Origin: a phage
Length of the DNA: 32,788 nucleotides
Strand: one strand, 5' to 3'
Assembly (NCBI GenBank): GCA_029942545.1
Contig: GCA_029942545.1_4114.3
The position numbers were made by a program, and so were the translations under genes. Of this stretch, positions 15,137-28,897 are shown piece after piece. Every line of letters begins with the position of its first letter. The stretch's first letter is position 1. The notes under the pieces were generated by a model. The model was not told the origin of the DNA. It saw nothing but the letters and a program-made list of their open reading frames with translations, and searched no databases.

Positions 15137-16285
15137 TCATTGTATAAATGACATATCAACTTCTGTATAACTAAGAATGTTTTGTCCAGCAATTCCCCCC
15201 ATTACTACCATAGCATACCCACAATAATATAATTGCTCAGTGTCCGTAAGTATAAGTGAACCAGATGGAGTGCGTACCAAATTACACGAACTATTAAACG
15301 AAGTATACGAAGGAGTATATGAGTACTGATTAATATTATTACCAACACCTAATTGACCAAATCCATTCGACCCAGATGCGTATAGAACTTCATCACCTTT
15401 AGCTATATGTGATGCCATGTTACTAACACACGTATATAGAGTATAAACTCCTGAACTCAATAATGTCGGAGTTTTGTATTGTATATCGGTAGATGAAGAA
15501 GTACCACCTGTGCCAAATTCGTTCCCGTATTGTGCACCGAACTGTTTACCACAAGCGTACAAATTATTATCCGATTTAATAAAAAATGTACTCTGATAAC
15601 TTACATCAAAATCTATAACATCTGAAGCAATCATCGTCACCCCAGTAATAGAAGTTTGATTACCTGTACCTAACTGATAGTAATAGTTAAAACCACAACC
15701 CCATAAAGTATTATCTTCTTTTAGGTATATGTTACCAACTGCCTTTTTAACCGAAGTTATAGTATCTACCCTTTTGAATGTGTTAAAAGAATTAATGTTT
15801 GTACCATCACCAAATGATGATAGGTTCGAGTTATTGTTAACTCCACAACAATACAACGTACCATCGTTTGTTATCAAATTCACCTTCATATCATTAAAAC
15901 TACTCATGTATTTTATATCAGAAACATTAATACCACCTGATGTTATCCACGTAGTACAGTCCGTCCACAAAGTTTTTGTATCAGTTACACCAGTGAATGC
16001 CTTCGTGTTACCAGTGATAAAAACTTTTCCAGTACCTTTCTCTTCATACATTTGACAACTACTACTGTTATCTTCCAATAGAACTCGTTTAACATTCTCT
16101 GCACAAAGAATAAATTTACTCGATGCTACACCTGTACCAGTACCCCAATTCGTCGCAGAAGATGCATACAACTTATTAGTATAAGTATCATGGAGATACA
16201 TAGAATCACTTGAATATATTTTAAAACGCCTATCCTTACCAGGGGCAATATTCCCATAATTCATCATTCTTGCAAAAGGTAACAT
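15137..16285 (-). CDS. RCC1-like beta-propeller repeat protein with MLPFARMMNYGNIAP leader
   Basis: ORF track; motif SGSNGFGQLGVGNN; long stretches near-identical to 11848..12996. Confidence 0.85.
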   Translation of the reverse strand: MLPFARMMNYGNIAPGKDRRFKIYSSDSMYLHDTYTNKLYASSATNWGTGTGVASSKFILCAENVKRVLLEDNSSSCQMYEEKGTGKVFITGNTKAFTGVTDTKTLWTDCTTWITSGGINVSDIKYMSSFNDMKVNLITNDGTLYCCGVNNNSNLSSFGDGTNINSFNTFKRVDTITSVKKAVGNIYLKEDNTLWGCGFNYYYQLGTGNQTSITGVTMIASDVIDFDVSYQSTFFIKSDNNLYACGKQFGAQYGNEFGTGGTSSSTDIQYKTPTLLSSGVYTLYTCVSNMASHIAKGDEVLYASGSNGFGQLGVGNNINQYSYTPSYTSFNSSCNLVRTPSGSLILTDTEQLYYCGYAMVVMGGIAGQNILSYTEVDMSFIQ

Positions 16286-16350
16286 ATTTCCCTCCTTTAT
16301 TCATTATACTATATTTAATACAAATAAGAAAGCCAGTACAGTGTACTGGC
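16286..16350 (-). promoter_or_regulatory. terminator-promoter-RBS cassette
   Basis: Same cassette; hairpin GCCAGTACACTGTACTGGC. Confidence 0.65.
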
Positions 16351-16356
16351 ATTATA

Positions 16357-17496
16357 TTATTTCCACGGTAGAAGTGAATCAGGAACCCTTGTTGGTACAG
16401 TAGTTGAAGACATTCCAGTAAGATTGGGTACACCACATGTGTATAAATTATTATATTCGTCAACTAACATCGTATAAGAATAGCTCTTACAAAAACTACT
16501 AAGATTACTACCTTCTAATGCAGTAAGATCCATTTCAGCGAATGATGTTATATACATATCAGTTGTACCAATACCACATTGACCATTTGAATTAAGGCCA
16601 CATGAAAATAACTTATTATTATTATTAATTATACAGGATGGTCCGGTAAGGTTTGTCCCAAGCTCACCCACCAACTCCACTTCTCCTTGGAATGATAAAT
16701 TTGGAATTAATGTACTCATTGGGGCTACTGACCTATTTCCTGTACCTGCTTGTCCATAGTCGTTAATAGATGCAACTTTAACATTACCATCATTAAGAAA
16801 TATATAAGAAGTTTCATTTGTATTGACTGCTTTAATTGCATTACTAATCGAAGTATCTTGTGTAAATGTGAGCAAGTTTTGTGTCGTCGTTCCTGATACA
16901 AACGTTCTACCTGCATACCAATATGAACCATCATTTAGTACTAATCCAGTACTATATATTGCACAACCAGCACTGATAACATTTTCTATTGTACTATAGG
17001 TGAATCGTGAAACGCTTGAAGTTGATCCATTCCCAAAAACACCACCAGTACCAGCACCACAGTAGAACCACTTTCCATTTTTTAAAAATACACGCATACA
17101 CGAAGATATCACAACACTATCAATATCATCTGCACTGACACCGAAATCAGTAAAGTTCTGTGTTATATCAACCCAAACGCCGTTAGTGTTTGAAGATAGT
17201 ATTGGAATAACAGTACGTCTACCAGTGTACCAAATAGTACCATCTTTCTTTATAGCAATTGTTCCTTGTACCCCACCCCAATATCGTGTAACATTTGAGT
17301 TGACAAGAGTCCATTCAGTTGAAGAGTCCAATGAACCATTACCACTTTGTCCATATGCTGAAGAACCAAACCAATATAGATTGCCATTTGTGTGTAAATA
17401 AAATTTGGCATCAGCAGAACATTGTAACCTGTTTTTAGGTAGAATCAGTTCAGGTGCGATATTCCCGTACTTAACCATTCTTGCAAAAGGTAACAT
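16357..17496 (-). CDS. RCC1-like beta-propeller repeat protein with MLPFARMVKYGNIAP leader
   Basis: ORF track; motifs SSAYGQSGNGS, GLNSNGQCGIGTT. Confidence 0.85.
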   Translation of the reverse strand: MLPFARMVKYGNIAPELILPKNRLQCSADAKFYLHTNGNLYWFGSSAYGQSGNGSLDSSTEWTLVNSNVTRYWGGVQGTIAIKKDGTIWYTGRRTVIPILSSNTNGVWVDITQNFTDFGVSADDIDSVVISSCMRVFLKNGKWFYCGAGTGGVFGNGSTSSVSRFTYSTIENVISAGCAIYSTGLVLNDGSYWYAGRTFVSGTTTQNLLTFTQDTSISNAIKAVNTNETSYIFLNDGNVKVASINDYGQAGTGNRSVAPMSTLIPNLSFQGEVELVGELGTNLTGPSCIINNNNKLFSCGLNSNGQCGIGTTDMYITSFAEMDLTALEGSNLSSFCKSYSYTMLVDEYNNLYTCGVPNLTGMSSTTVPTRVPDSLLPWK

Positions 17497-17561
17497 ATTT
17501 CCCTCCTTTATTCATTATACTATATTTAATACAAATAAGAAAGCCAGTACTCTGTACTGGC
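17497..17561 (-). promoter_or_regulatory. terminator-promoter-RBS cassette
   Basis: Same cassette; hairpin GCCAGTACAGAGTACTGGC. Confidence 0.65.
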
Positions 17562-17567
17562 ATTATG

Positions 17568-18677
17568 TTATTTTGGTAAATCAATTTTAGTAAAGACTGC
17601 AACATCCTCGATTGCACCTGGAATGGCGTAATACGATCCAGTACTATACACATCTCCATTTTTGGTTAATATCGATGTCAAACCATCACTAAAAAGAACA
17701 TCCCTAATCTCACTAACTTCAACGGGTAATTGTAAATTGGTAGCACTATATATAGCACCAGTTTGAGAATTGTTTAATCCCAAACCACGGTTCGCCCCAA
17801 CACCCTTCTGATATGTACTAGTAATTACCATTTGTGTAGCAGTATTTAAGGCAGGTGAATTCGTCATAAACAACGGAGAACTATTAGGCAAAGTACTTAC
17901 AGGAACGGCACGGAATGTAGTCGTGCCTGAACTAAGAAAGTTTGGAGTTTGACCACATACGAAATATGATGTACCATTATAGTAATTTAATGCATTACCA
18001 CCAATGGCTGCATCGATTACACCAGAACTACGCAATCCCCAAGTGTTAATTTGTGTTTGGTTCCCCGTACCATGCTGCCCACTACTATTCCATCCAGAAC
18101 TATATAGCTTATTATCTAATGTAAGATACATACTATCATTCGCATTGGTCATTACTTTACGAACGTTCGTAGCACATTGAGTTAATGTGTAAATTGATGA
18201 GGAACCAATACCCAAAGAACCACGATATCCATTATCTCCTGCACCATAGAGTACTGAATTAGTGCTAAGTACAAATATTAAACCATTTGTACATACAATA
18301 TTAGCAATTTCACTTACTGGTATAGCATTGGTAAACCAATTAGTTCTTTCAACTAATACAGTACTGTAAGAAGTAGTTGTAGAAGATGAGAACCAGTACG
18401 TTTGACCTGATGTCCATATCGTATTATCATTTTTAATAATAACAAGTGTACGATCACCCACGAAAAAATTAGAAACATCTGCACTTACTAATGTCCACGA
18501 AGACACCGTGTTGGTATTACCATTTCCAGATTCACCACCTTGATTTCTACCTATGTAATATAAATCATGTGAATCAGTCAATAAGAATTGGCCTTGGGTA
18601 GAAGCACCAACTTTAATTATTTTTTTAGGACCAGGGACAATATTTCCATACCTAATCATTCTTCCAAAAGGTAACAT
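17568..18677 (-). CDS. RCC1-like repeat protein with MLPFGRMIRYGNIVP leader
   Basis: ORF track 17568..18698, start moved to MLPF ATG; GGAGGG SD overlaps stop of upstream gene (coupled); motif GWNSSGQHGTGNQT. Confidence 0.8.
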   Translation of the reverse strand: MLPFGRMIRYGNIVPGPKKIIKVGASTQGQFLLTDSHDLYYIGRNQGGESGNGNTNTVSSWTLVSADVSNFFVGDRTLVIIKNDNTIWTSGQTYWFSSSTTTSYSTVLVERTNWFTNAIPVSEIANIVCTNGLIFVLSTNSVLYGAGDNGYRGSLGIGSSSIYTLTQCATNVRKVMTNANDSMYLTLDNKLYSSGWNSSGQHGTGNQTQINTWGLRSSGVIDAAIGGNALNYYNGTSYFVCGQTPNFLSSGTTTFRAVPVSTLPNSSPLFMTNSPALNTATQMVITSTYQKGVGANRGLGLNNSQTGAIYSATNLQLPVEVSEIRDVLFSDGLTSILTKNGDVYSTGSYYAIPGAIEDVAVFTKIDLPK

Positions 18678-18685
18678 ATTCCCTC

Positions 18686-19888
18686 CTATTGTTGCCATAA
18701 CTGCGTTGGCATTAATGTTAGTGTAGTAATACTATAAGTACCATTAGGTAATCTACCACCATTTCCATTCCAGCCACCACATGCATATAATTTATAATCT
18801 TTAGTAATTATTATGGTTCTGCTCCAATCTTTAGATGCCATAAGAACATTGTCATAACCACCACTTATTGCACTAAGATTAAAAATATTCCAAGTTCTAA
18901 CTAATGTATTAGTTCCATTACCTTCTTGACCATATGAGTTAGCACCACTACTTCTAACATATGGTGCGTATTGTGCCATAGGTGCACCAATTGATGCATT
19001 TCCCATATTACTTGGACAAATAAAAGTACTGTACTTACTTACATCAACCGTGACCGATGTGTTCCTAATTGGTGTTAGCTGATTTACCGATGTAGTCGTA
19101 CCATTACCAGCTTGTCCAGTACTGTTAACCCCGCTATAATATACAGACCCACCAGTAGTAAACCACCAAGTAACATCGTATGTAGTACTAATATGTTCTA
19201 CATTACTAATCACGAATTTGTTCAAATATACAACAGAACTACCACCACATCCACTTTCACCAAAGTTATCCTTACCACAAAACCATGCATCTTTATTTGA
19301 TTTGATATAGTGCGTTCCTTGTAATGAACATGCCATATGTGTAACTTCACCCATATTAGTCATAACTGTGAGTGTAGGGATGGAATTTTTATTACCAGAG
19401 CCACATTCACCATTAGTATTTCTTCCACACGCAATTACTCTACCATCGGTTAATAATATTCTAGTACTTTCACCTATATATACACTCTTGATCATATTAG
19501 CCATAACACCTATTTTATTAAATGCAACAGTAACATCAGTCCATGTTGTCAAATAACCATTAACAGGTGTTGCATCTCCATAATCAGAAAATGCAGCCAC
19601 AGACCCAGTGTAGTATATTTTATTATCCAAATCAATCATCAATGAACCTTGAACACCAAGCCAAAAGGCTGCACAGTTCCTTGCAAGTACTGTAAATGAC
19701 GAAACTGCTGCTGAATTCCCAAGACCAAATTGGTAAAAGTTATTACTACCATAACCATATAAAGTATTAGTTGGGTTATGGAGATACATACAGTTTGTAT
19801 AATGTTGTTGTAAAACATCTGAGAACTCTACAGGTTCTGGACCTGGTGCAATATTTGCGTACTTAACCATTCTTCCAAAAGGTAACAT
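18686..19888 (-). CDS. RCC1-like repeat protein with MLPFGRMVKYANIAP leader (first gene of array)
   Basis: ORF track 18686..19906, start moved to MLPF ATG; motifs CGRNTNGECGSGN, SGVNSTGQAGNGTT. Confidence 0.8.
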   Translation of the reverse strand: MLPFGRMVKYANIAPGPEPVEFSDVLQQHYTNCMYLHNPTNTLYGYGSNNFYQFGLGNSAAVSSFTVLARNCAAFWLGVQGSLMIDLDNKIYYTGSVAAFSDYGDATPVNGYLTTWTDVTVAFNKIGVMANMIKSVYIGESTRILLTDGRVIACGRNTNGECGSGNKNSIPTLTVMTNMGEVTHMACSLQGTHYIKSNKDAWFCGKDNFGESGCGGSSVVYLNKFVISNVEHISTTYDVTWWFTTGGSVYYSGVNSTGQAGNGTTTSVNQLTPIRNTSVTVDVSKYSTFICPSNMGNASIGAPMAQYAPYVRSSGANSYGQEGNGTNTLVRTWNIFNLSAISGGYDNVLMASKDWSRTIIITKDYKLYACGGWNGNGGRLPNGTYSITTLTLMPTQLWQQ

Positions 19889-19936
19889 ATTTCCCTCCTT
19901 ATTCATTATATCATATTTACCCCATAAAGAAAACCC
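19889..19936 (-). promoter_or_regulatory. promoter/RBS of first array gene (variant, no hairpin)
   Basis: Minus strand GATATAATGAATAAGGAGGGAAAT then ATG; shares a divergent intergenic region with the plus-strand promoter at 19937. Confidence 0.5.
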
Positions 19937-19965
19937 TTGACATCCTTTCAGTACTGGTGTACTAT
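19937..19965 (+). promoter_or_regulatory. sigma70-like promoter for the small-ORF array
   Basis: TTGACA (19937-19942), 17 nt, TACTAT (19960-19965); AAGGAG SD then ATG 19991; same TTGACA-17-TACTAT class as promoter at 1267. Confidence 0.6.
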
Positions 19966-19990: not shown

Positions 19991-20218
19991 ATGACAAATA
20001 CTCTTAAGTACTACCTCAATACTCTAAATGAACTAGAGTACGGGGAATTTCTCTCGGATAGTTCGTGGCTAATTGAGCTAAAAAATTATAATAGTCCAGG
20101 ATGCACCCTTATGATGAACAATGCAATTGATACCCTCATTGTGAGTATTTTACACAGCAACATCTGCGGGGATAGCAATAAACAATTATCAAAAATCTTA
20201 GTACTGCTATCTATATGA
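19991..20218 (+). CDS. small protein, ~60-aa paralog family member
   Basis: ORF track; AAGGAG SD; family features (N-terminal YY, central C-rich motif, hydrophobic C-terminus). Confidence 0.7.
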   Translation: MTNTLKYYLNTLNELEYGEFLSDSSWLIELKNYNSPGCTLMMNNAIDTLIVSILHSNICGDSNKQLSKILVLLSI

Positions 20219-20418
20219 ACATTGAACAGTACTACATCGATGCACTACCAACAAAAGGTCTACGAGAAAGCCTACTGTATACACAAAATACTTTTATACA
20301 CTACAAACGTTGTCCTAAACTCCTGAACTCGTACAGGAGTAATATCATAAGAAATGCTTTACAAGGGGCAGAAAGTATGCAATACTATTATATCCTTGCC
20401 CTTTTAATCGAGTACTAA
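20215..20418 (+). CDS. small protein, paralog family member
   Basis: ORF track; 4-nt overlap with upstream gene; motifs MNIEQYYID, ends LALLIEY. Confidence 0.7.
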   Translation: MNIEQYYIDALPTKGLRESLLYTQNTFIHYKRCPKLLNSYRSNIIRNALQGAESMQYYYILALLIEY

Positions 20419-20419
20419 T

Positions 20420-20629
20420 ATGAATACTGAACATAAAGAATTCTACACCAAATACCTTAGCAACGAAGAACAATTGTTTCTAAGGAGTGTATCACCTGTA
20501 AGTACCAATACTCACTTCGGTAGAGATTGCTTTAATAATTGTATACGTAGTACTCTAGAAGCAATCGAATGCAATAACAAAAATATTATGTACTCAGGTT
20601 TAATAGGACTAATCTACTTCTATGAATAA
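20420..20629 (+). CDS. small protein, paralog family member
   Basis: ORF track; starts MNTEHKEFYTKYL; central FNNCIRS. Confidence 0.7.
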   Translation: MNTEHKEFYTKYLSNEEQLFLRSVSPVSTNTHFGRDCFNNCIRSTLEAIECNNKNIMYSGLIGLIYFYE

Positions 20630-20816
20630 TCATAAAGATTTCTATGGTAGTAAACTACACAAGCAAGACCAGCTATCATTCTCTTTAGCACCACCTATGA
20701 GAAAGGATAATCTATATTACAATTACGATTTCAGGATGGCGACACGTTATGCAATAGAACATCAGTTCCCTGAAACTAAGTACCGCTCTATCCTGAACCT
20801 CATCTTTAAGTTCTAA
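20622..20816 (+). CDS. small protein, paralog family member
   Basis: ORF track; starts MNNHKDFY; 8-nt overlap with upstream gene. Confidence 0.65.
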   Translation: MNNHKDFYGSKLHKQDQLSFSLAPPMRKDNLYYNYDFRMATRYAIEHQFPETKYRSILNLIFKF

Positions 20817-20826
20817 AAGGTGCTAT

Positions 20827-21036
20827 ATGAAAACTACAAACATTCATCAGTACTACATAGATATTCTCCCTAAAGATGTACAGTTCATACTTAAACAAGA
20901 ATTCAGTACTTTAAAAAAACTAAAAAGAACCGCACCTTCAGCAATCATCCAGCACCAAAAAAATGTCGTGCGTAATATACTACAAGGTACACCAGGGACC
21001 GAGTACTTTAATATAGTAAGGCTAATTACATTATAA
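20827..21036 (+). CDS. small protein, paralog family member
   Basis: ORF track; starts MKTTNIHQYYIDILP; resembles 20215..20418. Confidence 0.7.
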   Translation: MKTTNIHQYYIDILPKDVQFILKQEFSTLKKLKRTAPSAIIQHQKNVVRNILQGTPGTEYFNIVRLITL

Positions 21037-21221
21037 TGAATCATATAAGCTACTACTACCAACAACTATCCGACAGAGACAAGTACAGTCACAACTCCCA
21101 TGTGTGGTACTACAAACGCGGCAGTATAAGAGACAAACAACATTACTTCTGTATTTCTATTAAAGAAGCACTGACAACTAAGTACACGTACCGAGCAGTA
21201 ATTAAACTTATTGAAATGTAA
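21036..21221 (+). CDS. small protein, paralog family member
   Basis: ORF track; ends KYTYRAVIKLIEM, matching the next gene's KYTYREVMKLIAI. Confidence 0.7.
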   Translation: MNHISYYYQQLSDRDKYSHNSHVWYYKRGSIRDKQHYFCISIKEALTTKYTYRAVIKLIEM

Positions 21222-21229
21222 GGAAGAAA

Positions 21230-21412
21230 ATGAACATAGAATTCTATTTAACTAAACTACAACACGCCGAAAGATTCAACTTCAATAAGTTCAATATTTT
21301 CTACAATTGCGGGAACAAAAAAGATAAACACACCTTCCTATATGTCGTCACAAGAGATGCACAAAACGAAAAGTACACATACAGAGAAGTAATGAAACTA
21401 ATCGCTATTTAA
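21230..21412 (+). CDS. small protein, paralog family member
   Basis: ORF track; close paralog of 21036..21221. Confidence 0.7.
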   Translation: MNIEFYLTKLQHAERFNFNKFNIFYNCGNKKDKHTFLYVVTRDAQNEKYTYREVMKLIAI

Positions 21413-21420
21413 GGAATACT

Positions 21421-21600
21421 ATGCAACAATTCTATAGAGAACGTATAACCATAAAAGACCGTTTCATGTACGACACCTTCGTGAAGTACTACAAACTAGG
21501 AACAAAAAGTACTAAAAATATTAATCTCAATAGCTGCATTTATGCTGTACTAACACAAGATAATCCCTACAGGGAAATCCTCGCCCTGGCATCTATATAA
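21421..21600 (+). CDS. small protein (59 aa), probable paralog family member
   Basis: Not in ORF track (below 60 aa); hand-called ATG about 21421 after AAGGA SD, stop TAA about 21598-21600; fills the only gap in the array; starts MQQFYRERI. Confidence 0.5.
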   Translation: MQQFYRERITIKDRFMYDTFVKYYKLGTKSTKNINLNSCIYAVLTQDNPYREILALASI

Positions 21601-21610
21601 AGGAAACCAA

Positions 21611-22282
21611 ATGAAACTTAATGCACACAGCAAACAATACCTTAAGCACTTTAAGTACCTCAATAGTATTCAGGCAGAATCAGTTACATCTGCATATACG
21701 TATCACCCGAATGTACTAAAGAAACGAAATAAAAAGGAAAAATCCAGTACAAATGGAGTTAACGTATCAAAGAACCTTGAATTGTACATGAAGAAAAATA
21801 ATATAGCTGTTCATTATATGAATATCTATAATACTGATTTAAAAGTATTGAGTACTAATACGAGCACAAAGGTACTAAAGAACGCATCCTTCATCATCAA
21901 TATGCAGTTGGATAATACCCCGTGCACTTTAATGCTATACTTCGGGAATACATACTTCTTCGGGAATTGTAACACCTCCCACGATGTCAATACAGCACAA
22001 TTCCAAATGGGTGGCATATACTCTACTGATGCAGAAAAAGTACACGAGAATATGCACTTCTGGCAAGCACAACGTACAGAAGAAACTGATACAGTACTAC
22101 AATTCCTCAAAGAACTAGAACACAAAGAACTACAGGAAGAAGAACTATTCATGTACAGTACTGTAATCGATAATCCAGTACTCTATAAAAACGCGTACAA
22201 TCTGACAAAACATGTACAGGAACTTATCAGTACTAATAAGAAAATGCATCACCTCATTACGTATATTACAAACTATGTATAA
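21611..22282 (+). CDS. hypothetical protein (223 aa) embedded in the small-ORF array
   Basis: ORF track; AAGGAAACC SD-like; no family motifs. Confidence 0.7.
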   Translation: MKLNAHSKQYLKHFKYLNSIQAESVTSAYTYHPNVLKKRNKKEKSSTNGVNVSKNLELYMKKNNIAVHYMNIYNTDLKVLSTNTSTKVLKNASFIINMQLDNTPCTLMLYFGNTYFFGNCNTSHDVNTAQFQMGGIYSTDAEKVHENMHFWQAQRTEETDTVLQFLKELEHKELQEEELFMYSTVIDNPVLYKNAYNLTKHVQELISTNKKMHHLITYITNYV

Positions 22283-22457
22283 AGAATACTACAGGGAACA
22301 TCTCCCAATGCATCTCCAGCACCATATACCAACAGAACCAATAGGAATAAAAGATCACGCAAAGATAATGTTTCAACAATGTACTAAGTACACGCTCATA
22401 TACGATGATAATCCATATATGCTGTACTACGTAGTAATGTTAACATTCAGGTACTAA
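22275..22457 (+). CDS. small protein, paralog family member
   Basis: ORF track 22212..22457; start moved to internal ATG (MYKEYYREHLP) that matches family N-termini and overlaps the upstream stop. Confidence 0.7.
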   Translation: MYKEYYREHLPMHLQHHIPTEPIGIKDHAKIMFQQCTKYTLIYDDNPYMLYYVVMLTFRY

Positions 22458-22458
22458 C

Positions 22459-22644
22459 ATGTATAAAGAATACTACATAGAGAAACTCCCAATGTATCTC
22501 CAACACCTTGTACCAACAGAACCATTGGGTATAGAAAAAAACTACGAAAAAGACTACTTCATTCAGTGCACTAAATCCTCGATATATATTGAAGACTATA
22601 ATCGAGTACTGTATCACATCCTTTTACTAATATATAGGTACTAA
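22459..22644 (+). CDS. small protein, paralog family member
   Basis: ORF track; MYKEYYIEKLP ... LLLIYRY; 1-nt intergenic gap. Confidence 0.75.
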   Translation: MYKEYYIEKLPMYLQHLVPTEPLGIEKNYEKDYFIQCTKSSIYIEDYNRVLYHILLLIYRY

Positions 22645-22645
22645 T

Positions 22646-22828
22646 ATGCACAAAGAATACTACACACAATTTCTCCCCAGCATTTTTGAACACTACGCCA
22701 GATACAAAGTCCCCCTGGATAACGATTTGGCAGTACTGGGATTCAATAACTGCATAGAACGAAGTATAGAAAATAGTAGTAGTTATGACCAGCTATATAA
22801 CACTATCCTACTTATATTCAGGTACTAA
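22646..22828 (+). CDS. small protein, paralog family member
   Basis: ORF track; MHKEYYTQFLP ... ILLIFRY. Confidence 0.75.
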   Translation: MHKEYYTQFLPSIFEHYARYKVPLDNDLAVLGFNNCIERSIENSSSYDQLYNTILLIFRY

Positions 22829-22829
22829 C

Positions 22830-23018
22830 ATGCATAAAGAATACTACACAAAATATTTCCCAATGTACCTCAGAACTAATCTATTAGATAAACCTCGCGG
22901 TATCAATGCACAAAATGATAAAGTGTATTTTACTATGTGCACTAAAGCATGTATACTAGATTTTGACAGCTATCATCGAGTACTGTATCATACCCTGTAC
23001 CTAGCTTTCGTATTCTAA
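22830..23018 (+). CDS. small protein, paralog family member
   Basis: ORF track 22785..23018; start moved to ATG 22830 (MHKEYYTKYFP) matching family. Confidence 0.7.
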   Translation: MHKEYYTKYFPMYLRTNLLDKPRGINAQNDKVYFTMCTKACILDFDSYHRVLYHTLYLAFVF

Positions 23019-23027
23019 GAGAACAAT

Positions 23028-23213
23028 ATGCATAAAGAATTCTACTTAAGCCATCTGGATCTAAACTCCCAAATGCTTATACCACTAATCCCAATAGATA
23101 TCAAGGATAAGAAAAATACCGAACAATTCATTTACCATACACAGTGTGCGATCACCCCAAATTACATTCCATATGAATTGTACTACATTCTCGCCCTAAT
23201 ATATAGGTACTAA
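23028..23213 (+). CDS. small protein, paralog family member
   Basis: ORF track; MHKEFYLSHL ... LALIYRY. Confidence 0.75.
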   Translation: MHKEFYLSHLDLNSQMLIPLIPIDIKDKKNTEQFIYHTQCAITPNYIPYELYYILALIYRY

Positions 23214-23214
23214 T

Positions 23215-23400
23215 ATGCATAGAGAATACTACACACAATTTGTTAAAGGGAACTACAAACATGCCGTACCCAGAACCCCTTTAAATTCTCATGACCCAAG
23301 TACTATATTCTTGTTTAATGACGCAATACGTACAGTACTCAATACTAAAGATGAAGATGTGCAGTACGTATTCTTACTATTACTTATATACAGACACTAA
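23215..23400 (+). CDS. small protein, paralog family member
   Basis: ORF track; MHREYYTQFV ... LLLIYRH. Confidence 0.75.
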   Translation: MHREYYTQFVKGNYKHAVPRTPLNSHDPSTIFLFNDAIRTVLNTKDEDVQYVFLLLLIYRH

Positions 23401-23405
23401 CTAAT

Positions 23406-23588
23406 ATGAATAAAGAACATAAAGAATTCTATATAAGAAAACTAACATTCGTCCCCGTAAGAATATATAAAGAATGCGACCCAAGATTATACCTATGGCA
23501 CTTCAATGAGTGCATAAAAGATTCTATATACCCTAAGAACTATAAAGAACAATTGTGCTCAGTACTAACACTAGTACTATCATATTAA
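23406..23588 (+). CDS. small protein, paralog family member
   Basis: ORF track; MNKEHKEFYIRKL; central FNECIKDSIY. Confidence 0.7.
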   Translation: MNKEHKEFYIRKLTFVPVRIYKECDPRLYLWHFNECIKDSIYPKNYKEQLCSVLTLVLSY

Positions 23589-23603
23589 TTAATAGAGAAT
23601 ACT

Positions 23604-23795
23604 ATGTATAAAAACTTCTATATAAGTAAACTAAAAGAAAATGAACAAGTATGGATTAGATCTATAATTCCACTGGCATTTAATAGATATGCATTTAACA
23701 GATGTACCGAGATTGCTATAGACCCTTATAATATTAAAGAGAATGTACAGTATAATCAGTACTACTATATCTTAATGCTTATATATAGGAAGTAA
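23604..23795 (+). CDS. small protein, paralog family member (last of array)
   Basis: ORF track; MYKNFYISKL ... ILMLIYRK. Confidence 0.7.
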   Translation: MYKNFYISKLKENEQVWIRSIIPLAFNRYAFNRCTEIAIDPYNIKENVQYNQYYYILMLIYRK

Positions 23796-23909: not shown

Positions 23910-24000
23910 GTAATCATAGGTAGTCATAAGTAATCATATATAAACATTTAAGTAATCATTTATAATCACTGTAGTGATCAGTAGTGATCAGTAGTGAGTA
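23910..24000. repeat. direct repeats: GTAATCA-type heptamers and three tandem 10-bp units
   Basis: GTAATCAT occurs at least 3 times with a related TAATCAC, followed by AGTAGTGATC x3 in tandem (about 23970-24000). Confidence 0.6.
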
Positions 24001-24129
24001 CTAGAGTACAGGAATGTTCACGTTTAATCAAGAACGTAGCAGTACTGATATGTCACTAAGTAGGCAGAGGAAGTCTGCCGTACTTTTTAGTTTCCAAGCT
24101 CCTTTTCCATTTTTCAAATTACATCAAAT

Positions 24130-24164
24130 GTAATCAAAAGTAATCACGCAATGATTAGTACTGA
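24130..24164. repeat. GTAATCA repeats including an inverted pair
   Basis: GTAATCAAAAGTAATCACGCAATGATTAG: two direct copies plus inverted TAATCA/TGATTA around CGCAA. Confidence 0.55.
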
Positions 24165-24423
24165 ATTATTACTTTCACCTTAATTACAATTACCCTTTTA
24201 CCCGTCGGGGTAAAATTCCATTACCCCTTGAGGCTCCAGCAAAAAGTTGGTTAGTACTCCATCCTAAATCTCGATCCTAAAAATTTTGGAGTACCTATGA
24301 AATAAAAGTTGGATCTTCGAAAGTTGAAATTTACGTTGGGACGTTTATGATTTGTGGGATATAATGATGTTTGTAGACGGGTAGTTCTCAAGAATATCAG
24401 TACTGAATAATGAAAGAAAGTTA

Positions 24424-24451
24424 TTGACATTATGATTCAGTACTGTATAAT
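24424..24451 (+). promoter_or_regulatory. strong sigma70-like promoter in ORF-free region
   Basis: TTGACA (24424-24429), 16 nt containing CAGTACTG, TATAAT (24446-24451); no ORF of meaningful length downstream. Confidence 0.55.
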
Positions 24452-24457
24452 GTTCTA

Positions 24458-24656
24458 CATAGAGAGATGAGTTGCTGCCAACAATTCATTTACTCTACCT
24501 CCTGTCGTGAGACAGTACAGAAAAGATAGTTCCTCCTGTGGTGGTACATCTTTTTGAACCTCATATGAAAATCGTAATAACAGTACTGATATTAACAGAA
24601 TGGTGTCAGTACTGATTTTAATCTAAAGCATTATGCCACCAGCTTGTGCTGGTGGA
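24458..24656 (+). ncRNA. candidate small non-coding RNA (about 200 nt)
   Basis: Downstream of promoter 24424-24451; longest ORF about 20 aa; two CCTCCTGT(C/G)GTG copies (anti-SD-like CCUCCU); ends at 8-bp hairpin CCACCAGC-ttgt-GCTGGTGG (24636-24655) without a clear U-tract. Confidence 0.25.
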
Positions 24657-24796
24657 TTCCCTCTAACAGTATTCAGTACTACATGATAGTCTTCATCCTC
24701 CTAGGGTAACATAGTGAGGGCTATGATGGCAGTACTGAATACTCCTTTCACAAGATAGATCTATGGTATAGTACTGACGGATTTTGGGCGTAGTTA

Positions 24797-24968
24797 CCCT
24801 GGATGGATTTTGGACGTAGATATGTCTAGCCCTCCAGAAGTCTGGAAGTAAAGATGGCTATCCATCTAGACGGCTAGACGGCTAGATTTCTGGATGGCTG
24901 GATGGCTAGACGTTTGGACGGCTAAACGGCTAGATGGTTACACGTCTGGAAGTATAGACGGCTAAATC
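24797..24968. repeat. iteron-like array of short direct repeats
   Basis: Repeated 7-11 bp words: ACGGCTA(G/A)A x5, TGGATGG x3, TTGGACG x2, GTCTGGAAGTA x2, mostly in one orientation at roughly 9-11 bp spacing. Confidence 0.6.
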
Positions 24969-25130
24969 AAAATTTTATTTTGTTTTTTCCAATAGTTCCC
25001 CTACCGCGTGGGGATAGTTTCCCCGCAGTATCTGGAGTTAGATTTTTCTGAATCTGGAATCATTATCTTATAAACTGGGGGCAATGTCAACGGCCTGGAC
25101 GGATATTTTTAAAAATTTTTTCAGTACTGA

Positions 25131-25182
25131 ATTTTGGGCGTAACTATGCACCCGGTGGGCTTGAGTCTTTCTCGACTTGATG
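25131..25182 (+). repeat. ~50-nt repeated element, copy A
   Basis: ATTTTGGGCGTAACTATGCACCCGGTGGGCTTGAGTCTTTCTCGACTTGATG; shares ATTTTGGGCGTAA, GCACCC and CTTTCTCG..T.ATG blocks with copies at 25347 and 28955. Confidence 0.5.
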
Positions 25183-25245
25183 AAAATATTATAGCAGTAC
25201 TGAAAAAATAAAGCAATACCCTAAACGCAAAAAGTTTTAATTAAT

Positions 25246-25274
25246 TTGCTTGCCATCCTGGGGCGTACTATGAT
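25246..25274 (+). promoter_or_regulatory. possible promoter (TTGCTT -35-like, TATGAT -10)
   Basis: TTGCTT, 17 nt, TATGAT, upstream of repeated element copy B; weak match. Confidence 0.25.
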
Positions 25275-25346
25275 ACTATTATTCAGTACTGAGAAAGTGC
25301 TATGACCTGCTAAGGTGCGGGAGTGTATCCTTTTTAAATTATATGA

Positions 25347-25399
25347 ATTTTGGGCGTAATTCCGCACCCCCCAGGGGTATCCGCTTTCTCGCGTCTATG
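25347..25399 (+). repeat. ~50-nt repeated element, copy B
   Basis: ATTTTGGGCGTAATTCCGCACCCCCCAGGGGTATCCGCTTTCTCGCGTCTATG. Confidence 0.5.
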
Positions 25400-25657
25400 T
25401 AGTAATTATACGCTTTTTCGGTGCTGAGTCAATAGCTAAAAACAAAATAATTGAAAATAATTTAACGCGTTTAAACGGCCCGTAAAGCCCTGGTTAGCTG
25501 GTGGCGGTGCAAATGTATAGCTTAGGTGTATTAATGCGTTAGAAAGCGGCTGAGGCCGTTTTATGGGGTGTATAGTAGTGATTTGGTTGATTCAGTACTG
25601 AAAGATAGTTCCCCTATATAGAAAGAAAACTATTTTAAAAGTATTTGTAGAAAGTAC

Positions 25658-25720
25658 TTGCAAAGTATTGGGAAAGGTGTAGAATGTTTTACATCGAGAC
25701 GGGGGATACGCTCCCGACTC
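25658..25720 (+). promoter_or_regulatory. early-type promoter plus downstream stem-loop (PeSL-like)
   Basis: AGTACTTGCAA, 16 nt, TAGAAT, GTTTTACATC, then GGGGGATACGCTCCC hairpin; gene 25743 follows. Confidence 0.55.
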
Positions 25721-25742
25721 ACTTTTAAAAGAGATTAAAACG

Positions 25743-26105
25743 ATGGCGACTCAAATCAATACTATCATGCTTAACCTGGTTTCTTTCCGTGAAGAGATGA
25801 AAGATCTTCCCGCTGAGACTGTACGGATTCACATTGCAGCTTATCGGGAATTGATTGCAATGTTACCGCTTAAGCGTGAACAGTATGCAGCTACTGCAAT
25901 GCTGGACGCAATGATACATAAGATGATCCAGACTGATTTAACGATGGCTTATCAGTACATGGGCGAAATGTTTGCAGTGTATAGCAAGCCAGTACCAGGA
26001 ATGGAAAGTACAGAAGTATTGCACGGCTTAAACTTAAAACAAGATGCATGGGATAATATGCCTCGTTTCCTGGTATGGGCTGATAGTGGAAAGATTTACG
26101 AATAA
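25743..26105 (+). CDS. hypothetical protein (120 aa)
   Basis: ORF track; downstream of promoter/stem-loop; GC-richer codon choice. Confidence 0.7.
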   Translation: MATQINTIMLNLVSFREEMKDLPAETVRIHIAAYRELIAMLPLKREQYAATAMLDAMIHKMIQTDLTMAYQYMGEMFAVYSKPVPGMESTEVLHGLNLKQDAWDNMPRFLVWADSGKIYE

Positions 26106-26119
26106 GTTTAATAAAGTAC

Positions 26120-26178
26120 TTGCAAACTAAGTTTAAAAGCGTATAATGTTTTACATCAGGTGGGGAATAGTTCCCCAC
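26120..26178 (+). promoter_or_regulatory. early-type promoter plus stem-loop (PeSL-like)
   Basis: TTGCAA (26120-26125), 16 nt, TATAAT (26142-26147), GTTTTACATC, hairpin GTGGGGAATAGTTCCCCAC. Confidence 0.6.
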
Positions 26179-26198
26179 TATATAAGAGGATTAAAAAA

Positions 26199-26438
26199 AT
26201 GGCTAAATCAAAAATGTTCTTAGGTCACAAAAACAAAACTCAATGGAATGTAAGCCTTTGGATTAATAACGACGAATCATTATACCGGTTGGCCCAGGAC
26301 TTTATTGCCGCTAACACTAATCGTAATGATGCGGCCCGTCATATGATGCTATTTTTAGAACAGACTGGACAAGATAAAACACCGGACGGCTTTAAGTATA
26401 GCACTACTGCGATCCGTGCGGCGATGGTTGGAATGTAA
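26199..26438 (+). CDS. hypothetical protein (79 aa)
   Basis: ORF track 26160..26438; start moved to ATG 26199 (MAKSKMF) after AGAGGA SD; the longer ORF would begin inside the 5' stem-loop. Confidence 0.7.
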   Translation: MAKSKMFLGHKNKTQWNVSLWINNDESLYRLAQDFIAANTNRNDAARHMMLFLEQTGQDKTPDGFKYSTTAIRAAMVGM

Positions 26439-26459
26439 GAGAATAGATTAAAAGTACTA

Positions 26460-26484
26460 TTGCACGGTGATAGTACTTTATAAT
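26460..26484 (+). promoter_or_regulatory. possible promoter
   Basis: AGTACTATTGCAC ... TTTATAAT upstream of gene 26521; spacer about 13 nt for TTGCAC, so register is uncertain. Confidence 0.3.
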
Positions 26485-26520
26485 AGATTTCTTTTATACA
26501 ACAACGATAGGGGTAACAGC

Positions 26521-26787
26521 ATGAATATTATATACTTTGCAACGCGTGAACTTGCTCGGATTGCCGCACGCCAGGACGGGGCGACGTTTAAAGATATGGG
26601 CGTACAATCTGAACGTGGTAAACGTTGGGCCGTAGTAAAGCAAAGTACAGCCCGATCAATTCAGTACTGGCTATCTGCTTTAAAGCGTCCTGATAGTGTA
26701 TCGCGTCGCGTGGTAGAAATAAAGCACGACCGCAAGGGCAACCGCGTTACAGTGTACAGTACTAAAAAGATTGCAGTACTTGAATAA
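26521..26787 (+). CDS. hypothetical protein (88 aa), basic
   Basis: ORF track 26467..26787 (GTG start); start moved to ATG 26521 (MNIIYFATREL) after AGGGGT SD. Confidence 0.65.
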   Translation: MNIIYFATRELARIAARQDGATFKDMGVQSERGKRWAVVKQSTARSIQYWLSALKRPDSVSRRVVEIKHDRKGNRVTVYSTKKIAVLE

Positions 26788-26908
26788 AAGTACTTGACCG
26801 TTATCCGGCTTAGTGAGATAATACTTACAAGCCGGACACAAGGCGATAGCCCATAGGGTGCGGGAGTGTATCTATAGGAAAGTACTAAAAACTATTTTCA
26901 AAAAGTAC

Positions 26909-26936
26909 TTGCAAACTATGTTTAAAGGCGTATAAT
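26909..26936 (+). promoter_or_regulatory. early-type promoter
   Basis: TTGCAA, 16 nt, TATAAT, GTTTTACATC; followed by a ~90-nt leader with a 9-codon mini-ORF (MKNSPDKIV). Confidence 0.55.
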
Positions 26937-27026
26937 GTTTTACATCAGGACGGGGAATGAAATAAGTAACTCCCTGTTAAGTAGTCCAGGAGTAAGACGT
27001 ATGAAAAACTCCCCTGATAAAATAGT

Positions 27027-27054
27027 TTGACAATAGAAAGTAAAAGCGTATAAT
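27027..27054 (+). promoter_or_regulatory. early-type promoter
   Basis: TTGACA (27027-27032), 16 nt, TATAAT (27049-27054), ACTTACATC. Confidence 0.6.
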
Positions 27055-27086
27055 ACTTACATCAACTAATGAATGAGGGTTACAAA

Positions 27087-27698
27087 ATGAAAACTATCAC
27101 TACTACTACTTTTGTTATGGCTTTTTCTGAACTGAACGCAGAACAACAAACGGCGGCTATCGAACTGGTTCGGGATCGGGAACGTGCAAGTGAGGATAAT
27201 TTCTTTGCTGAATCAGTACTGGAATACTATAAAGAAACAGTACTACCAGAATACGGCATAGATGAAGCTGAATTGCAATACAGTGGTTTTTGGTCGCAAG
27301 GTGACGGTGCATCAATCAGTACTGACCACGTTGACGCTGAGAAGTTTTTACGCAAGGTTAAGGCGTTAACGAAATATCGTTCCATCCGTCACCTGTTGAA
27401 CGAAGATGATTTGGAAATGAGTGTAGAACGTTCCCAATCGCGTTATGCACACGAAAACACGGTAGGCGGTTGCGTTGATACTCGCTACACTGATTTAACT
27501 GTAAAACAGGCTGCATTAGCTGAGGATCTGGAAAACTTACTGACTGATACTATCCGAGAATTATCTTGTAAGCTGTACCGTGATTTAGAAAATGCTTATG
27601 AAGACCAGTTTACTACTGAAAACATTGTAGCACTGATCGAGGGTAACGAATATCAATTTAACGTTATCGACGATGTAGTAGAATCTATCGCATATTAA
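27087..27698 (+). CDS. hypothetical protein (203 aa), acidic
   Basis: ORF track 27069..27698; start moved to ATG 27087 (MKTITTT) after GAGGGT SD; the 27069 ATG has no SD. Confidence 0.7.
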   Translation: MKTITTTTFVMAFSELNAEQQTAAIELVRDRERASEDNFFAESVLEYYKETVLPEYGIDEAELQYSGFWSQGDGASISTDHVDAEKFLRKVKALTKYRSIRHLLNEDDLEMSVERSQSRYAHENTVGGCVDTRYTDLTVKQAALAEDLENLLTDTIRELSCKLYRDLENAYEDQFTTENIVALIEGNEYQFNVIDDVVESIAY

Positions 27699-27715
27699 TT
27701 CAGTACTGAATCAAT

Positions 27716-27735
27716 GGCGGGGAATGGTTCCCGCC
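27716..27735 (+). promoter_or_regulatory. solo stem-loop of the PeSL type (no promoter)
   Basis: GGCGGGGAATGGTTCCCGCC between genes 27087 and 27757, preceded by TTCAGTACTGAA palindrome. Confidence 0.5.
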
Positions 27736-27756
27736 TATATCCCAGGAGTAAGAGAA

Positions 27757-27993: not shown

Positions 27994-28000
27994 AAAGTAC

Positions 28001-28059: not shown

Positions 28060-28078
28060 CTTTACTGAGGATTATCTA

Positions 28079-28893: not shown

Positions 28894-28897
28894 TACA

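What the first reader, a model, noticed from the sequence alone, without database searches (positions are those of the whole stretch)
19991..23795. Operon-like array of 16 paralogous ~60-aa proteins with conserved gene junctions
Sixteen ORFs of 59-75 aa share an N-terminal M-x-(K/N)-E-(Y/F)-Y start, a central (F/G)-N-x-C-(I/T)-x-x-(S/T)-I-type motif and a hydrophobic C-terminus ending L-(I/L)-(Y/F)-R-Y. Several junctions are conserved at the nucleotide level (ATATAGGTACTAATATGCA(C/T)AAAGAATACTACAC), which suggests expansion by unequal crossing-over, and the internal regions are highly variable. Tandem arrays of diversified small proteins in phages are typical of host-takeover or anti-defence functions, but the family is unassigned here.
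Basis: partly seen in the sequence, partly recalled or inferred. Interest (0 to 1): 0.7.

Follow-up and report, generated by a model that had tools for sequence, protein, structure and literature searches.

The report
Small-protein gene array in jumbo coliphage
A jumbo E. coli phage (genus Asteriusvirus) carries one operon of 16 small, related helical proteins of unknown function beside its terminal repeat; the set gains and loses genes by recombination and is probably an early host-interaction toolkit, but nothing here shows what it does.

Summary
The array is real, but less uniform than described. The window comes from a 121Q/PBECO4/G17-like jumbo coliphage (Asteriusvirus).

- **Family membership:** Only 10 small ORFs are one family by pairwise and HMM tests (PHROG 11711, unknown function). 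Five more, in two subfamilies, join only by profile-profile comparison (HH probability 93-95%). The first ORF is a tentative member.
- **Fold:** AlphaFold gives a confident four-helix mini-fold (pLDDT 91.5) with no relative in PDB, Pfam, NCBIfam or PADLOC.
- **Distribution:** The family is found only in Asteriusvirus.
- **Expression signals:** There is one conserved sigma70-like promoter, Shine-Dalgarno-like sites and coupled stop/start junctions. dN/dS is 0.3-0.5. The array ends 263 bp before the 20.7-kb direct terminal repeat, and no member is listed among phAPEC6 virion proteins.
- **Turnover:** Copy number varies from 15 to 22 small ORFs across seven related phages. One window gene is a chimera of two adjacent 121Q genes, joined inside the conserved 5' junction. 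This is direct evidence of unequal recombination.

An early host-takeover or anti-defence role is plausible but untested. This is a new member of a known kind, of moderate interest.

The parts
19937..19965 (+). Sigma70-like promoter of the array: TTGACA, a 17-nt spacer containing CAGTACTG, then TACTAT.
   Evidence: Found by the consensus scan. The -35, CAGTACTG, -10 and downstream AAGGAG are invariant in 8 Asteriusvirus genomes, although the coding DNA differs by up to ~12%. JNE01 keeps TTGACA-N17-TACAAT.
19991..20218 (+). ORF m01, 75 aa, subfamily A. First cistron, with a strong AAGGAG Shine-Dalgarno site. Tentative distant member of the superfamily.
   Evidence: A to B hhalign score is 22.6 over 58 columns against a shuffle maximum of 13.6, with HH probability 27%. 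There are no pairwise hits.
20215..20418 (+). ORF m02, 67 aa, subfamily B. Its start overlaps the m01 stop (ATGA).
   Evidence: Pairs with m05 at about 1e-9. B to core hhalign probability is 92.6%.
20420..20629 (+). ORF m03, 69 aa, core family (phrog_11711).
20622..20816 (+). ORF m04, 64 aa, core family (phrog_11711). It overlaps m03 by 8 nt.
20827..21036 (+). ORF m05, 69 aa, subfamily B. This cassette is absent from 121Q, E9.1 and TH47.
21036..21221 (+). ORF m06, 61 aa, subfamily C.
   Evidence: C to core hhalign probability is 94.8%.
21230..21412 (+). ORF m07, 60 aa, subfamily C.
21421..21600 (+). ORF m08, 59 aa, subfamily C.
21611..22282 (+). ORF m09, 223 aa, called D here. Unrelated to the family but a fixed part of the operon in every relative. 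Function unknown.
   Evidence: Matches phrog_29152 at 1.5e-155. Its only homologues are in Asteriusvirus. No Pfam, NCBIfam or PADLOC match. Not related to the family, C-terminal part included. The AF2 model has pLDDT 45 and is unusable.
22275..22457 (+). ORF m10, 60 aa, core family. Recombinant: 5' end of the 121Q gene 257 type joined to the body of the gene 258 type.
   Evidence: for the chimera. for family membership.
22459..22644 (+). ORF m11, 61 aa, core family. This is the protein that was modelled.
   Evidence: AF2 pLDDT 91.5, with helices at 3-7, 12-15, 28-43 and 47-60. Family membership.
22646..22828 (+). ORF m12, 60 aa, core family. The most conserved paralogue.
   Evidence: 93-100% amino-acid identity in 33 of the 34 phage records that hold a match, and at least 98% in 28 of the 30 listed. 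pN/pS is 0.05 against BF17.
22830..23018 (+). ORF m13, 62 aa, core family. It contains a promoter-like site, TTGACA-N17-TATCAT, at 22963-22991.
23028..23213 (+). ORF m14, 61 aa, core family.
23215..23400 (+). ORF m15, 61 aa, core family.
23406..23588 (+). ORF m16, 60 aa, core family.
23604..23795 (+). ORF m17, 63 aa, core family. Last cistron.
24059..24085 (+). Inner edge of the ~20.7-kb direct terminal repeat (starts at 24059), with a terminator-like hairpin GGCAGAGGAAGTCTGCC plus a T-run at 24063-24085.
   Evidence: The right physical end of G17 and the left end of E9.1 both map to window position 24059. The hairpin comes from the scan.

Best explanation
The locus is one polycistronic, probably early, operon of an Asteriusvirus jumbo coliphage.

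**Proposed mechanism**
- Host sigma70 RNA polymerase starts at the promoter at 19937-19965 and reads about 4.1 kb towards the inner edge of the direct terminal repeat.
- The transcript carries 17 translationally coupled cistrons. Fifteen, and probably sixteen, belong to one genus-specific superfamily of ~60-aa soluble cytoplasmic proteins.
- These proteins share a small four-helix scaffold. Its buried positions are conserved: the N-terminal K-E-(Y/F)-Y clasp, F34, C37, (T/I)38 and (I/L)42 in helix 3, and an aliphatic/aromatic C-terminal helix. The loop and exposed helix faces differ from paralogue to paralogue.
- Inferred: each paralogue binds a different partner in the infected cell, such as host takeover targets or defence proteins, very early in infection.

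**How the array evolves**
- It evolves by birth and death. Homologous recombination between the conserved junctions deletes, duplicates and moves whole gene cassettes. A junction comprises the last codons (which carry the next gene's AGG Shine-Dalgarno site), the stop, the ATG and the first six codons.
- Related phages therefore carry different subsets of a larger repertoire.

**Shown:** the ORFs, the family structure, the scaffold model, the conserved promoter sequence (not its activity), the ribosome-binding signals, purifying selection, genus restriction, the position next to the repeat, and the recombination.

**Inferred:** early timing, cytoplasmic binding function, and the nature of the targets.
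For: - **Identity and context:** The window is 98.9% identical to G17 and Sharanji over the array. The same A-B-core-C-D-core layout occurs in 121Q, G17, slurp01, E9.1, BF17, TH47 and the diverged JNE01.
- **Family:** Supported.
- **Coding signals:**
  - ORFs are intact in all verified relatives. TH47, an UNVERIFIED record, has a broken unit, and CMSTMSU, also unverified, was left out.
  - dN/dS is 0.29-0.54 against six phages, and substitutions are most frequent at third codon positions.
  - m12 is 98-100% identical in nearly all of the 34 records.
  - Shine-Dalgarno-like sites are enriched, p = 5e-4, and the three starts without one have overlapping or adjacent stop/start junctions.
- **Promoter:**
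  - It is invariant across 8 phages.
  - It resembles the AGTACTG/-10 promoter-like class (AGTACTGTATAAT) found five times, in the same orientation, in the adjacent repeat.
- **Early-region analogy:**
  - In the related phage CBB, RpoD-like promoters and short ORFs cluster beside and inside the terminal repeat and were proposed to be early genes (PMC5259590).
  - In PA5oct, RNA-seq shows that the repeat genes are early and made by host RNA polymerase (PMC7318152).
- **Position:** The repeat edge is at 24059, 263 bp after the last stop codon.
- **Not virion-associated:** The phAPEC6 virion table lists the neighbouring RCC1-like gp549 and gp551 but no array member.
- **Soluble:** No 19-residue window exceeds a Kyte-Doolittle mean of 1.18, the N-termini are polar, and pI ranges from 4.7 to 10.
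- **Scaffold and surface:** AF2 pLDDT is 91.5. The per-column entropy pattern supports a conserved core with a variable surface.
- **Recombination and turnover:** Chimera. 31 orthogroups in 7 phages with cassette presence/absence and one moved unit.
Against: - No expression, timing or protein data exist for any Asteriusvirus in the searchable literature.
- The consensus promoter scan as a whole is not enriched over shuffles: 21 sites found against 29.6 expected. The promoter call therefore rests on conservation and on its shared architecture.
- The -10 hexamer TACTAT matches the consensus at only 4 of 6 positions.
- Small proteins are easily missed by virion mass spectrometry, so their absence there is weak evidence.
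- dN/dS of 0.3-0.5 is relaxed, and some units may be nearly dispensable.
- Subfamily A membership is uncertain.
Confidence: 0.55

Rival explanations
1. The small proteins work with the neighbouring, divergently oriented array of ~12 RCC1-like beta-propeller paralogues (5674-19906, minus strand). They would act as cognate chaperones, adaptors or inhibitors, with the two multigene families diversifying together.
For: - The two arrays sit head to head and share an 84-nt intergenic region.
- Both are multi-copy and variable among relatives.
- The RCC1-like identity is confirmed by Pfam RCC1/WD40_RLD.
Against: - The regulatory architecture differs. Most RCC1-like units have their own hairpin terminator and their own promoter-like cassette. 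Two of them are virion proteins in phAPEC6. The small ORFs share one sigma70-like promoter and are not in the virion list.
- Salmonella phage Munch has the RCC1-like array running up to the end of the record with no small-ORF array, so the RCC1-like proteins do not need these partners.
Confidence: 0.1
2. The array is largely evolutionary by-product. Recombination-prone duplicated cassettes would be tolerated in a genome with spare packaging capacity, with weak or no individual function. This matches the tandem-duplication growth proposed for jumbo phages.
For: - Copy number varies freely among close relatives.
- dN/dS is relaxed at 0.3-0.5, with single-gene ratios above 1 for m16 and m17 against BF17 on few substitutions.
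- Jumbo-phage genome growth by tandem duplication is proposed in PMC7247149.
Against: - ORFs remain intact across phages with dS up to 0.23, and even in JNE01, where members are only 25-60% identical.
- Several paralogues are under strong constraint. m12 has pN/pS 0.05 and m13 has 0.13, and m12 is 98-100% identical in nearly all of the 34 records.
- The collinear backbone A1-B1...C1...C3-D1-k3...k9-k10 is kept in nearly all of the phages compared; TH47 lacks C3.
- The promoter and ribosome-binding sites are conserved.
Confidence: 0.15
3. The 223-aa ORF (m09) is an effector or toxin, and the small paralogues that follow it are an immunity-type or antidote-type array, as in bacterial polymorphic-toxin loci.
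For: - m09 is fixed in the middle of the array in all relatives and is always followed by 8-12 core-family genes.
- Arrays of small helical immunity paralogues downstream of a toxin gene are a known arrangement (own knowledge).
Against: - m09 matches no toxin, enzyme or other family in Pfam, NCBIfam or PADLOC.
- Its AF2 model is uninformative, at pLDDT 45.
- Family members also lie upstream of m09 (m02-m08).
- Nothing ties repertoire changes to changes in m09.
Confidence: 0.05

Closest known systems
PHROG family phrog_11711 (unknown function) and the 'hypothetical protein' genes 249-265 of Escherichia phage 121Q (orthologues in PBECO4, G17, phAPEC6, slurp01)
   Same: - Ten window ORFs match phrog_11711 end to end, with E-values from 1.6e-6 to 5e-28.
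- The window array is 98-99% identical to the G17, Sharanji and phAPEC6 arrays, and the genes are annotated there.
   Different: - The PHROG covers only the core subfamily. Subfamilies A, B and C have no PHROG at E <= 0.01.
- I found no paper describing the array, its subfamily structure, its position at the repeat edge or its recombination.
Terminal-repeat and repeat-adjacent early gene blocks of large virulent phages. Examples: T5 pre-early genes, the SPO1 host-takeover module and the Kayvirus Tre genes (own knowledge), plus the CBB and PA5oct repeat regions (PMC5259590, PMC7318152).
   Same: - Many short ORFs of unknown function lie at or in the long direct terminal repeat.
- They sit behind host sigma70-type promoters and all read in one direction.
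   Different: - Those blocks are mostly unrelated genes, not a 16-member paralogous family.
- The array here lies just outside the repeat, not in it.
- Early timing has not been measured for this phage.
Multigene families near the genome ends of large eukaryotic DNA viruses. Examples: ASFV MGF100/110/360/505 and poxvirus 'genomic accordions' (own knowledge).
   Same: - Tandem paralogues lie next to the terminal repeats.
- Copy number changes between strains by unequal recombination.
- Related viruses carry different subsets of a larger repertoire.
   Different: - There is no sequence or fold relationship, and the host domain is different.
- The members are much smaller, at ~60 aa.
- An immune-evasion role is established for the eukaryotic families and only conjectured here.
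Lineage-specific expansions in other jumbo phages, for example ~35 zinc-ribbon copies in Bacillus phage G (PMC7824862), and the RCC1-like array of phAPEC6 (PMC7247149).
   Same: A single small domain expanded in tandem within one phage lineage.
   Different: - The fold is different: four helices, with one conserved Cys and no metal-binding pattern.
- This family is confined to one genus.

Membership tests
phrog_11711 (PHROGs v4, unknown function) | Significant full-length match to the family HMM (62 positions) | tested here: met
   Ten ORFs match (20420, 20622, 22275, 22459, 22646, 22830, 23028, 23215, 23406, 23604), with E-values from 1.6e-6 to 5e-28 covering the whole profile. The other six small ORFs have no hit at E <= 0.01.
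   - C to core: hhalign probability 94.8%, E 5e-8.
- B to core: probability 92.6%, E 4e-7. Both are far above 60 column shuffles.
- A (ORF 19991) links only to B: score 22.6, shuffle maximum 13.6, probability 27%.
- So 15 of 16 are met and the 16th is tentative.
Early (host-RNAP-transcribed) phage genes | Sigma70-type promoter upstream, conserved among relatives | tested here: met
   TTGACA-N17-TACTAT at 19937-19965 is invariant in 8 phages. It shares the AGTACTG element with promoter-like sites in the repeat.
Early (host-RNAP-transcribed) phage genes | Transcripts present in the first minutes of infection | not testable with these tools
   No Asteriusvirus transcriptome was found. The only evidence is by analogy with CBB and PA5oct.
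Known anti-defence or host-takeover proteins with solved structures (for example Ocr, Acr proteins, Tad, Gad, Acb) | Sequence or fold similarity to a characterised member | tested here: not met
   - PDB profile search: best E-value 0.065, to a designed repeat protein.
- Foldseek against PDB: no hit with E <= 0.001.
- BFVD: only members of the same family.
- No dedicated anti-defence HMM library was available.
Membrane or secreted small phage proteins (superinfection exclusion, holin-like) | Transmembrane segment or signal peptide | tested here: not met
   The highest 19-residue Kyte-Doolittle mean is 1.18, in m01, and at most 1.02 in the others. The N-termini are polar (MHKEYY). The hydrophobic C-terminus is a 14-residue helix packed in the model.
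Virion structural or ejected proteins | Detection in purified virions | tested here: not met
   The phAPEC6 ESI-MS/MS table lists gp347 and then gp549 and gp551, with no array member such as gp542c. This negative is weak for 7-kDa proteins.
Terminal multigene family evolving by unequal recombination (works-like comparison with ASFV MGFs and poxvirus accordions) | Unit-level gain or loss between strains, with breakpoints in the inter-unit homology | tested here: met
   The m10 chimera has its crossover in AAAGAATACTA. The orthogroup map shows cassette presence/absence. The array lies 263 bp from the repeat edge.

The most novel reading that the evidence does not exclude
The array is a combinatorial library of single-scaffold binders. 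In this reading it is a previously unrecognised superfamily of ~60-aa early proteins in which each paralogue neutralises a different E. coli or Salmonella defence system or host factor. Cassette turnover by junction recombination would then tune host range. It would be a phage counterpart of the terminal multigene families of poxviruses and ASFV.
Probability: 0.25. Interest if true: 0.8.

Novelty: new member of a known kind. Interest (0 to 1): 0.45.

Why it matters
If the paralogues are early binders with distinct targets, one 4-kb locus would supply 16-22 compact, well-folded candidate inhibitors per phage. Seven genomes already hold 31 orthogroups, and the natural presence/absence variants could be correlated with host range. 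Asteriusviruses are being proposed for therapy against pathogenic E. coli, yet more than 80% of their genes have no assigned function. The locus also gives a clean example of how jumbo-phage genomes grow and shrink by recombination between conserved gene junctions. If the array proves dispensable, it is simply one more lineage-specific expansion.

Tried and rejected
- **Family libraries:** Pfam, NCBIfam and PADLOC scans of representatives and of all 58 aligned members gave only sub-threshold noise.
- **m09 C-terminus as a fused family domain:** Rejected. The hhalign scores fall within the shuffle range.
- **m09 structure:** pLDDT 45, so it was not used for fold search.
- **Exhaustive profile search of 1.84 billion representatives:** It returned 36 hits. 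Two long repetitive proteins, P0083 and P0085, are spurious. The rest are ~60-aa proteins, and those I traced come from Asteriusvirus.
- **Other copies in the window:** A six-frame HMM scan found no further member outside the array.
- **tRNA and Rfam scans:** Nothing found.
- **RCC1-like neighbour as a dN/dS control:** Failed, because the flanking genes compared were not orthologous at ~30% identity.
- **Tandem Repeats Finder:** It does not detect the gene-length period.
- **Literature:** Searches found no description of the array and no transcriptome for the genus.

Full report
**Source and context**

The window is a piece of an Asteriusvirus, a ~350-kb jumbo myovirus of E. coli and Salmonella of the 121Q/PBECO4/G17 type. 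The array region is 98.9% identical to G17 and Sharanji, and it is present in 34 phage records. In those records the genes are annotated 'hypothetical protein'.

Upstream, on the minus strand, lie about 12 RCC1-like paralogues (5674-19906). Downstream is an ORF-poor stretch and then small + strand ORFs that all belong to PHROGs of unknown function. There are no tRNA or Rfam matches.

**The observation**

Positions 19991-23795 are filled by 17 + strand ORFs, separated by overlaps (ATGA, 8 nt, 1 nt) or gaps of at most about 15 nt. Sixteen are 59-75 aa.

Two mechanical ORFs (22212, 22785) are better started at 22275 and 22830, where the family-type MYKEYY/MHKEYY start lies.

Looser junction repeats recur every 184-198 nt.

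**Is it one family?**

All-against-all phmmer links ten ORFs into one network. It also gives a separate pair (20215, 20827) and a separate triplet (21036, 21230, 21421). ORFs 19991 and 21611 have no partner.

A core HMM scores its ten members at 59-94 bits, while 3,400 shuffled decoys reach at most 16 bits. The other ORFs do not rise above the decoys. PHROGs picks out exactly the same ten, as phrog_11711, unknown function.

I then collected the arrays of seven relatives and later of JNE01. With subfamily profiles, hhalign gave these results:

| Comparison | Score | HH probability | Column-shuffle maximum |
|---|---|---|---|
| C to core | 37.6 | 94.8% (E 5e-8) | 12.0 |
| B to core | 34.3 | 92.6% (E 4e-7) | 19.7 |
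| A (ORF 19991) to B | 22.6 over 58 collinear columns | 27% | 13.6 |

ORF 21611 is unrelated, and so is its C-terminal third. So 15 of the 16 small ORFs are supported as one superfamily with three clear subfamilies. The sixteenth is tentative, and the motif description fits strictly only the core ten.

**Are they genes?**

- **ORF integrity.** The ORFs are intact in all verified relatives. This includes JNE01, whose members are only 25-60% identical to the window's. TH47, an UNVERIFIED record, shows a frameshifted C unit, and CMSTMSU, also unverified, was excluded as frameshift-rich.
- **Selection.** Summed over orthologous pairs, dN/dS is 0.29-0.54, with more substitutions at third codon positions.
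- **Differences between paralogues.** m12 has pN/pS 0.05 and is 98-100% identical in protein in nearly all of the 34 records. m16 and m17 show ratios above 1, on few substitutions.
- **Ribosome-binding sites.** Anti-Shine-Dalgarno pairing upstream of the 17 starts averages -3.5 kcal/mol, against -0.9 for the other 66 ATGs in the region (p = 5e-4). The first cistron has AAGGAG. The three starts without a Shine-Dalgarno site have overlapping or adjacent stop/start junctions.
- **Dual-use codons.** In the best-conserved junctions, the AGG that serves the next gene is the Arg codon of the C-terminal ...Y-R-Y. Part of the C-terminal and junction conservation may therefore be a dual coding and ribosome-binding constraint (read from the sequences).

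**Transcription signals and position**

One sigma70-like promoter lies between the RCC1-like gene and ORF 1: TTGACA, a 17-nt spacer containing CAGTACTG, then TACTAT, at 19937-19965. The 100-nt intergenic region is 96% identical in eight phages, and every promoter element is invariant. JNE01 keeps TTGACA-N17-TACAAT.

The consensus scan as a whole is not enriched over shuffles. The argument therefore rests on conservation and on shared architecture. AGTACTGTATAAT, an extended -10-like element, occurs five times exactly where 0.29 is expected. All five are on the + strand in the stretch downstream of the array. A one-mismatch copy with a perfect TTGACA 17 nt upstream lies inside m13 and could be an internal promoter.

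The right physical end of G17 and the left end of E9.1 both map to window position 24059. This is therefore the inner edge of the ~20.7-kb direct terminal repeat, 263 bp after the last stop codon of the array. A terminator-like hairpin sits at 24063-24079. Repeat lengths of 20,668 and 20,993 bp are reported for Sharanji and fEgEco12, the latter confirmed by restriction digestion (PMC11895373; PMC13070987).

In the related phage CBB, RpoD-like promoters and short ORFs beside and within the repeat were proposed to be the early region (PMC5259590). In PA5oct, RNA-seq shows that the repeat genes are early and transcribed by host polymerase (PMC7318152). No transcriptome exists for Asteriusvirus, so early timing is an inference.

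**The proteins**

AlphaFold2 on m11 with a 58-sequence family alignment gives pLDDT 91.5 and pTM 0.75. The model has two short N-terminal helices (3-7, 12-15), a loop, and a helical hairpin (28-43, 47-60).

The conserved columns are K3, E4, Y/F5, Y6, L10, P22, F34, C37, T/I38, I/L42, Y/L51, L55, L57, I58 and F/Y59, with helical periodicity. The loop and the other helix faces are highly variable.

The proteins have no transmembrane segment or signal peptide. They are aromatic-rich (15-21% Y+F+W in most) and range in pI from 4.7 to 10.

No family or structure library gives a lead:
- Pfam, NCBIfam and PADLOC: nothing.
- PDB profile search: best E-value 0.065.
- Foldseek against PDB: nothing.
- BFVD: only the family itself.

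The 223-aa protein has homologues only in this genus and folds poorly, at pLDDT 45. The phAPEC6 virion proteome lists two neighbouring RCC1-like proteins but none of the array.

**Distribution**

- A word-indexed profile search of 5.8 billion clusters gave 69 clusters. All the named ones are from Asteriusvirus or from ~350-kb 'E. coli' contigs.
- An exhaustive HMMER search of 1.84 billion representatives gave 34 genuine ~60-aa hits and two spurious repeat proteins.
- The most divergent members map to JNE01 and Turkey5.
- Salmonella phage Munch, of a related genus, has the RCC1-like array running to within 331 bp of the record end, with no small-ORF array.

The array is therefore a genus-level innovation between the RCC1-like genes and the repeat.

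**Evolution of the array**

All relatives share the order A-B-(core)-(B)-C(n)-D-core(n). The unit numbers differ, however: core 9-13, C 3-6, B 1-2.

Clustering at 70% identity gives 31 orthogroups in seven phages: 18 core, 9 C, 2 B, 1 A and 1 D. There is a collinear backbone, cassette presence/absence, and one unit (k1) at a different position in BF17 and TH47.

Window ORF m10 is identical to the upstream region and first ~20 nt of 121Q gene 257, and from there on to the body of gene 258. The switch lies inside the shared AAAGAATACTA. One unit was therefore removed by recombination between adjacent junctions.

**Interpretation**

The best-supported reading is an early, host-RNAP-transcribed polycistronic operon. 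It encodes a genus-specific multigene family of small soluble helical proteins with a conserved core and variable surfaces, evolving by junction-mediated birth and death next to the terminal repeat.

That they bind different targets in the infected cell (host takeover or anti-defence) is an inference from position, promoter type, size, surface variability and turnover. No homology supports it.

Three rivals remain:
- **Partnership with the RCC1-like paralogues.** Weakened by the different regulatory design and by Munch.
- **Near-neutral duplication.** Weakened by ORF maintenance and by strongly constrained members.
- **A toxin/immunity-like arrangement around m09.** No evidence supports it.

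**Novelty and verdict**

The genes are already deposited, and the core subfamily is a PHROG of unknown function. I found no paper that describes the array.

Tandem lineage-specific expansions and early gene blocks beside terminal repeats are known kinds of feature. This is a new, well-delimited member of that kind, with an unassigned fold. Interest is moderate and would be high if distinct targets per paralogue were shown.

Noticed in passing
whole window; dense at 24040-25600: The palindrome CAGTACTG occurs 33 times where 0.55 is expected. It lies in promoter spacers, in the hairpins between RCC1-like genes, and as free-standing TCAGTACTGA sites in the ORF-poor stretch at the repeat edge. It may be a binding site for a phage or host protein.
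   Followed up: partly
24439, 28608, 30612, 32328, 32652 (+ strand): AGTACTGTATAAT, an extended -10-like element, occurs five times exactly where 0.29 is expected. All copies are on the + strand inside the terminal-repeat part and ahead of small ORFs. This looks like a promoter class for the repeat genes.
   Followed up: partly
24059: The inner boundary of the ~20.7-kb direct terminal repeat maps here. The physical ends of G17 and E9.1 both align to this base. Window 24059-32788 therefore lies inside the repeat.
   Followed up: yes
23910-23997 and 24865-24964: Short tandem repeats flank the repeat edge: GTAATCATAA x4.8, GTAGTGATCA x2.7 and CTAGACGG x12 (iteron-like). GC skew changes sign near 24000. 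These could be packaging or replication signals.
   Followed up: no
5674-19906 (- strand): About 12 RCC1-like beta-propeller paralogues of ~245-406 aa lie here. Most units carry the same intergenic cassette: hairpin GCCAGTACTnnnGTACTGGC plus a T-run, then GTATTAAATATAGTATAATGAATAAAGGAGG. Each unit therefore looks like its own transcription unit. Two orthologues are virion proteins in phAPEC6.
   Followed up: partly
22963-22991 (+ strand), inside ORF m13: A promoter-like site, TTGACA-N17-TATCAT with AGTACTG in the spacer, matches the consensus at 11 of 12 positions. It could drive the last four cistrons separately. It also encodes the family's conserved ...RVLYH... segment.
   Followed up: no
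21611-22282 (+ strand): A 223-aa protein (phrog_29152) is fixed in the middle of the array in every relative. It is found only in this genus, has no family match, and gives a poor AF2 model (pLDDT 45).
   Followed up: partly
L011 (Salmonella phage Munch, 341000-350103): In this related genus the RCC1-like genes run to within 331 bp of the record end. No small-ORF array precedes the repeat-homologous region.
   Followed up: partly
25743-32788 (+ strand): All ten repeat-encoded ORFs tested belong to PHROGs of unknown function. One matches DUF7249. This is a block of uncharacterised small genes reading in the same direction as the array.
   Followed up: partly
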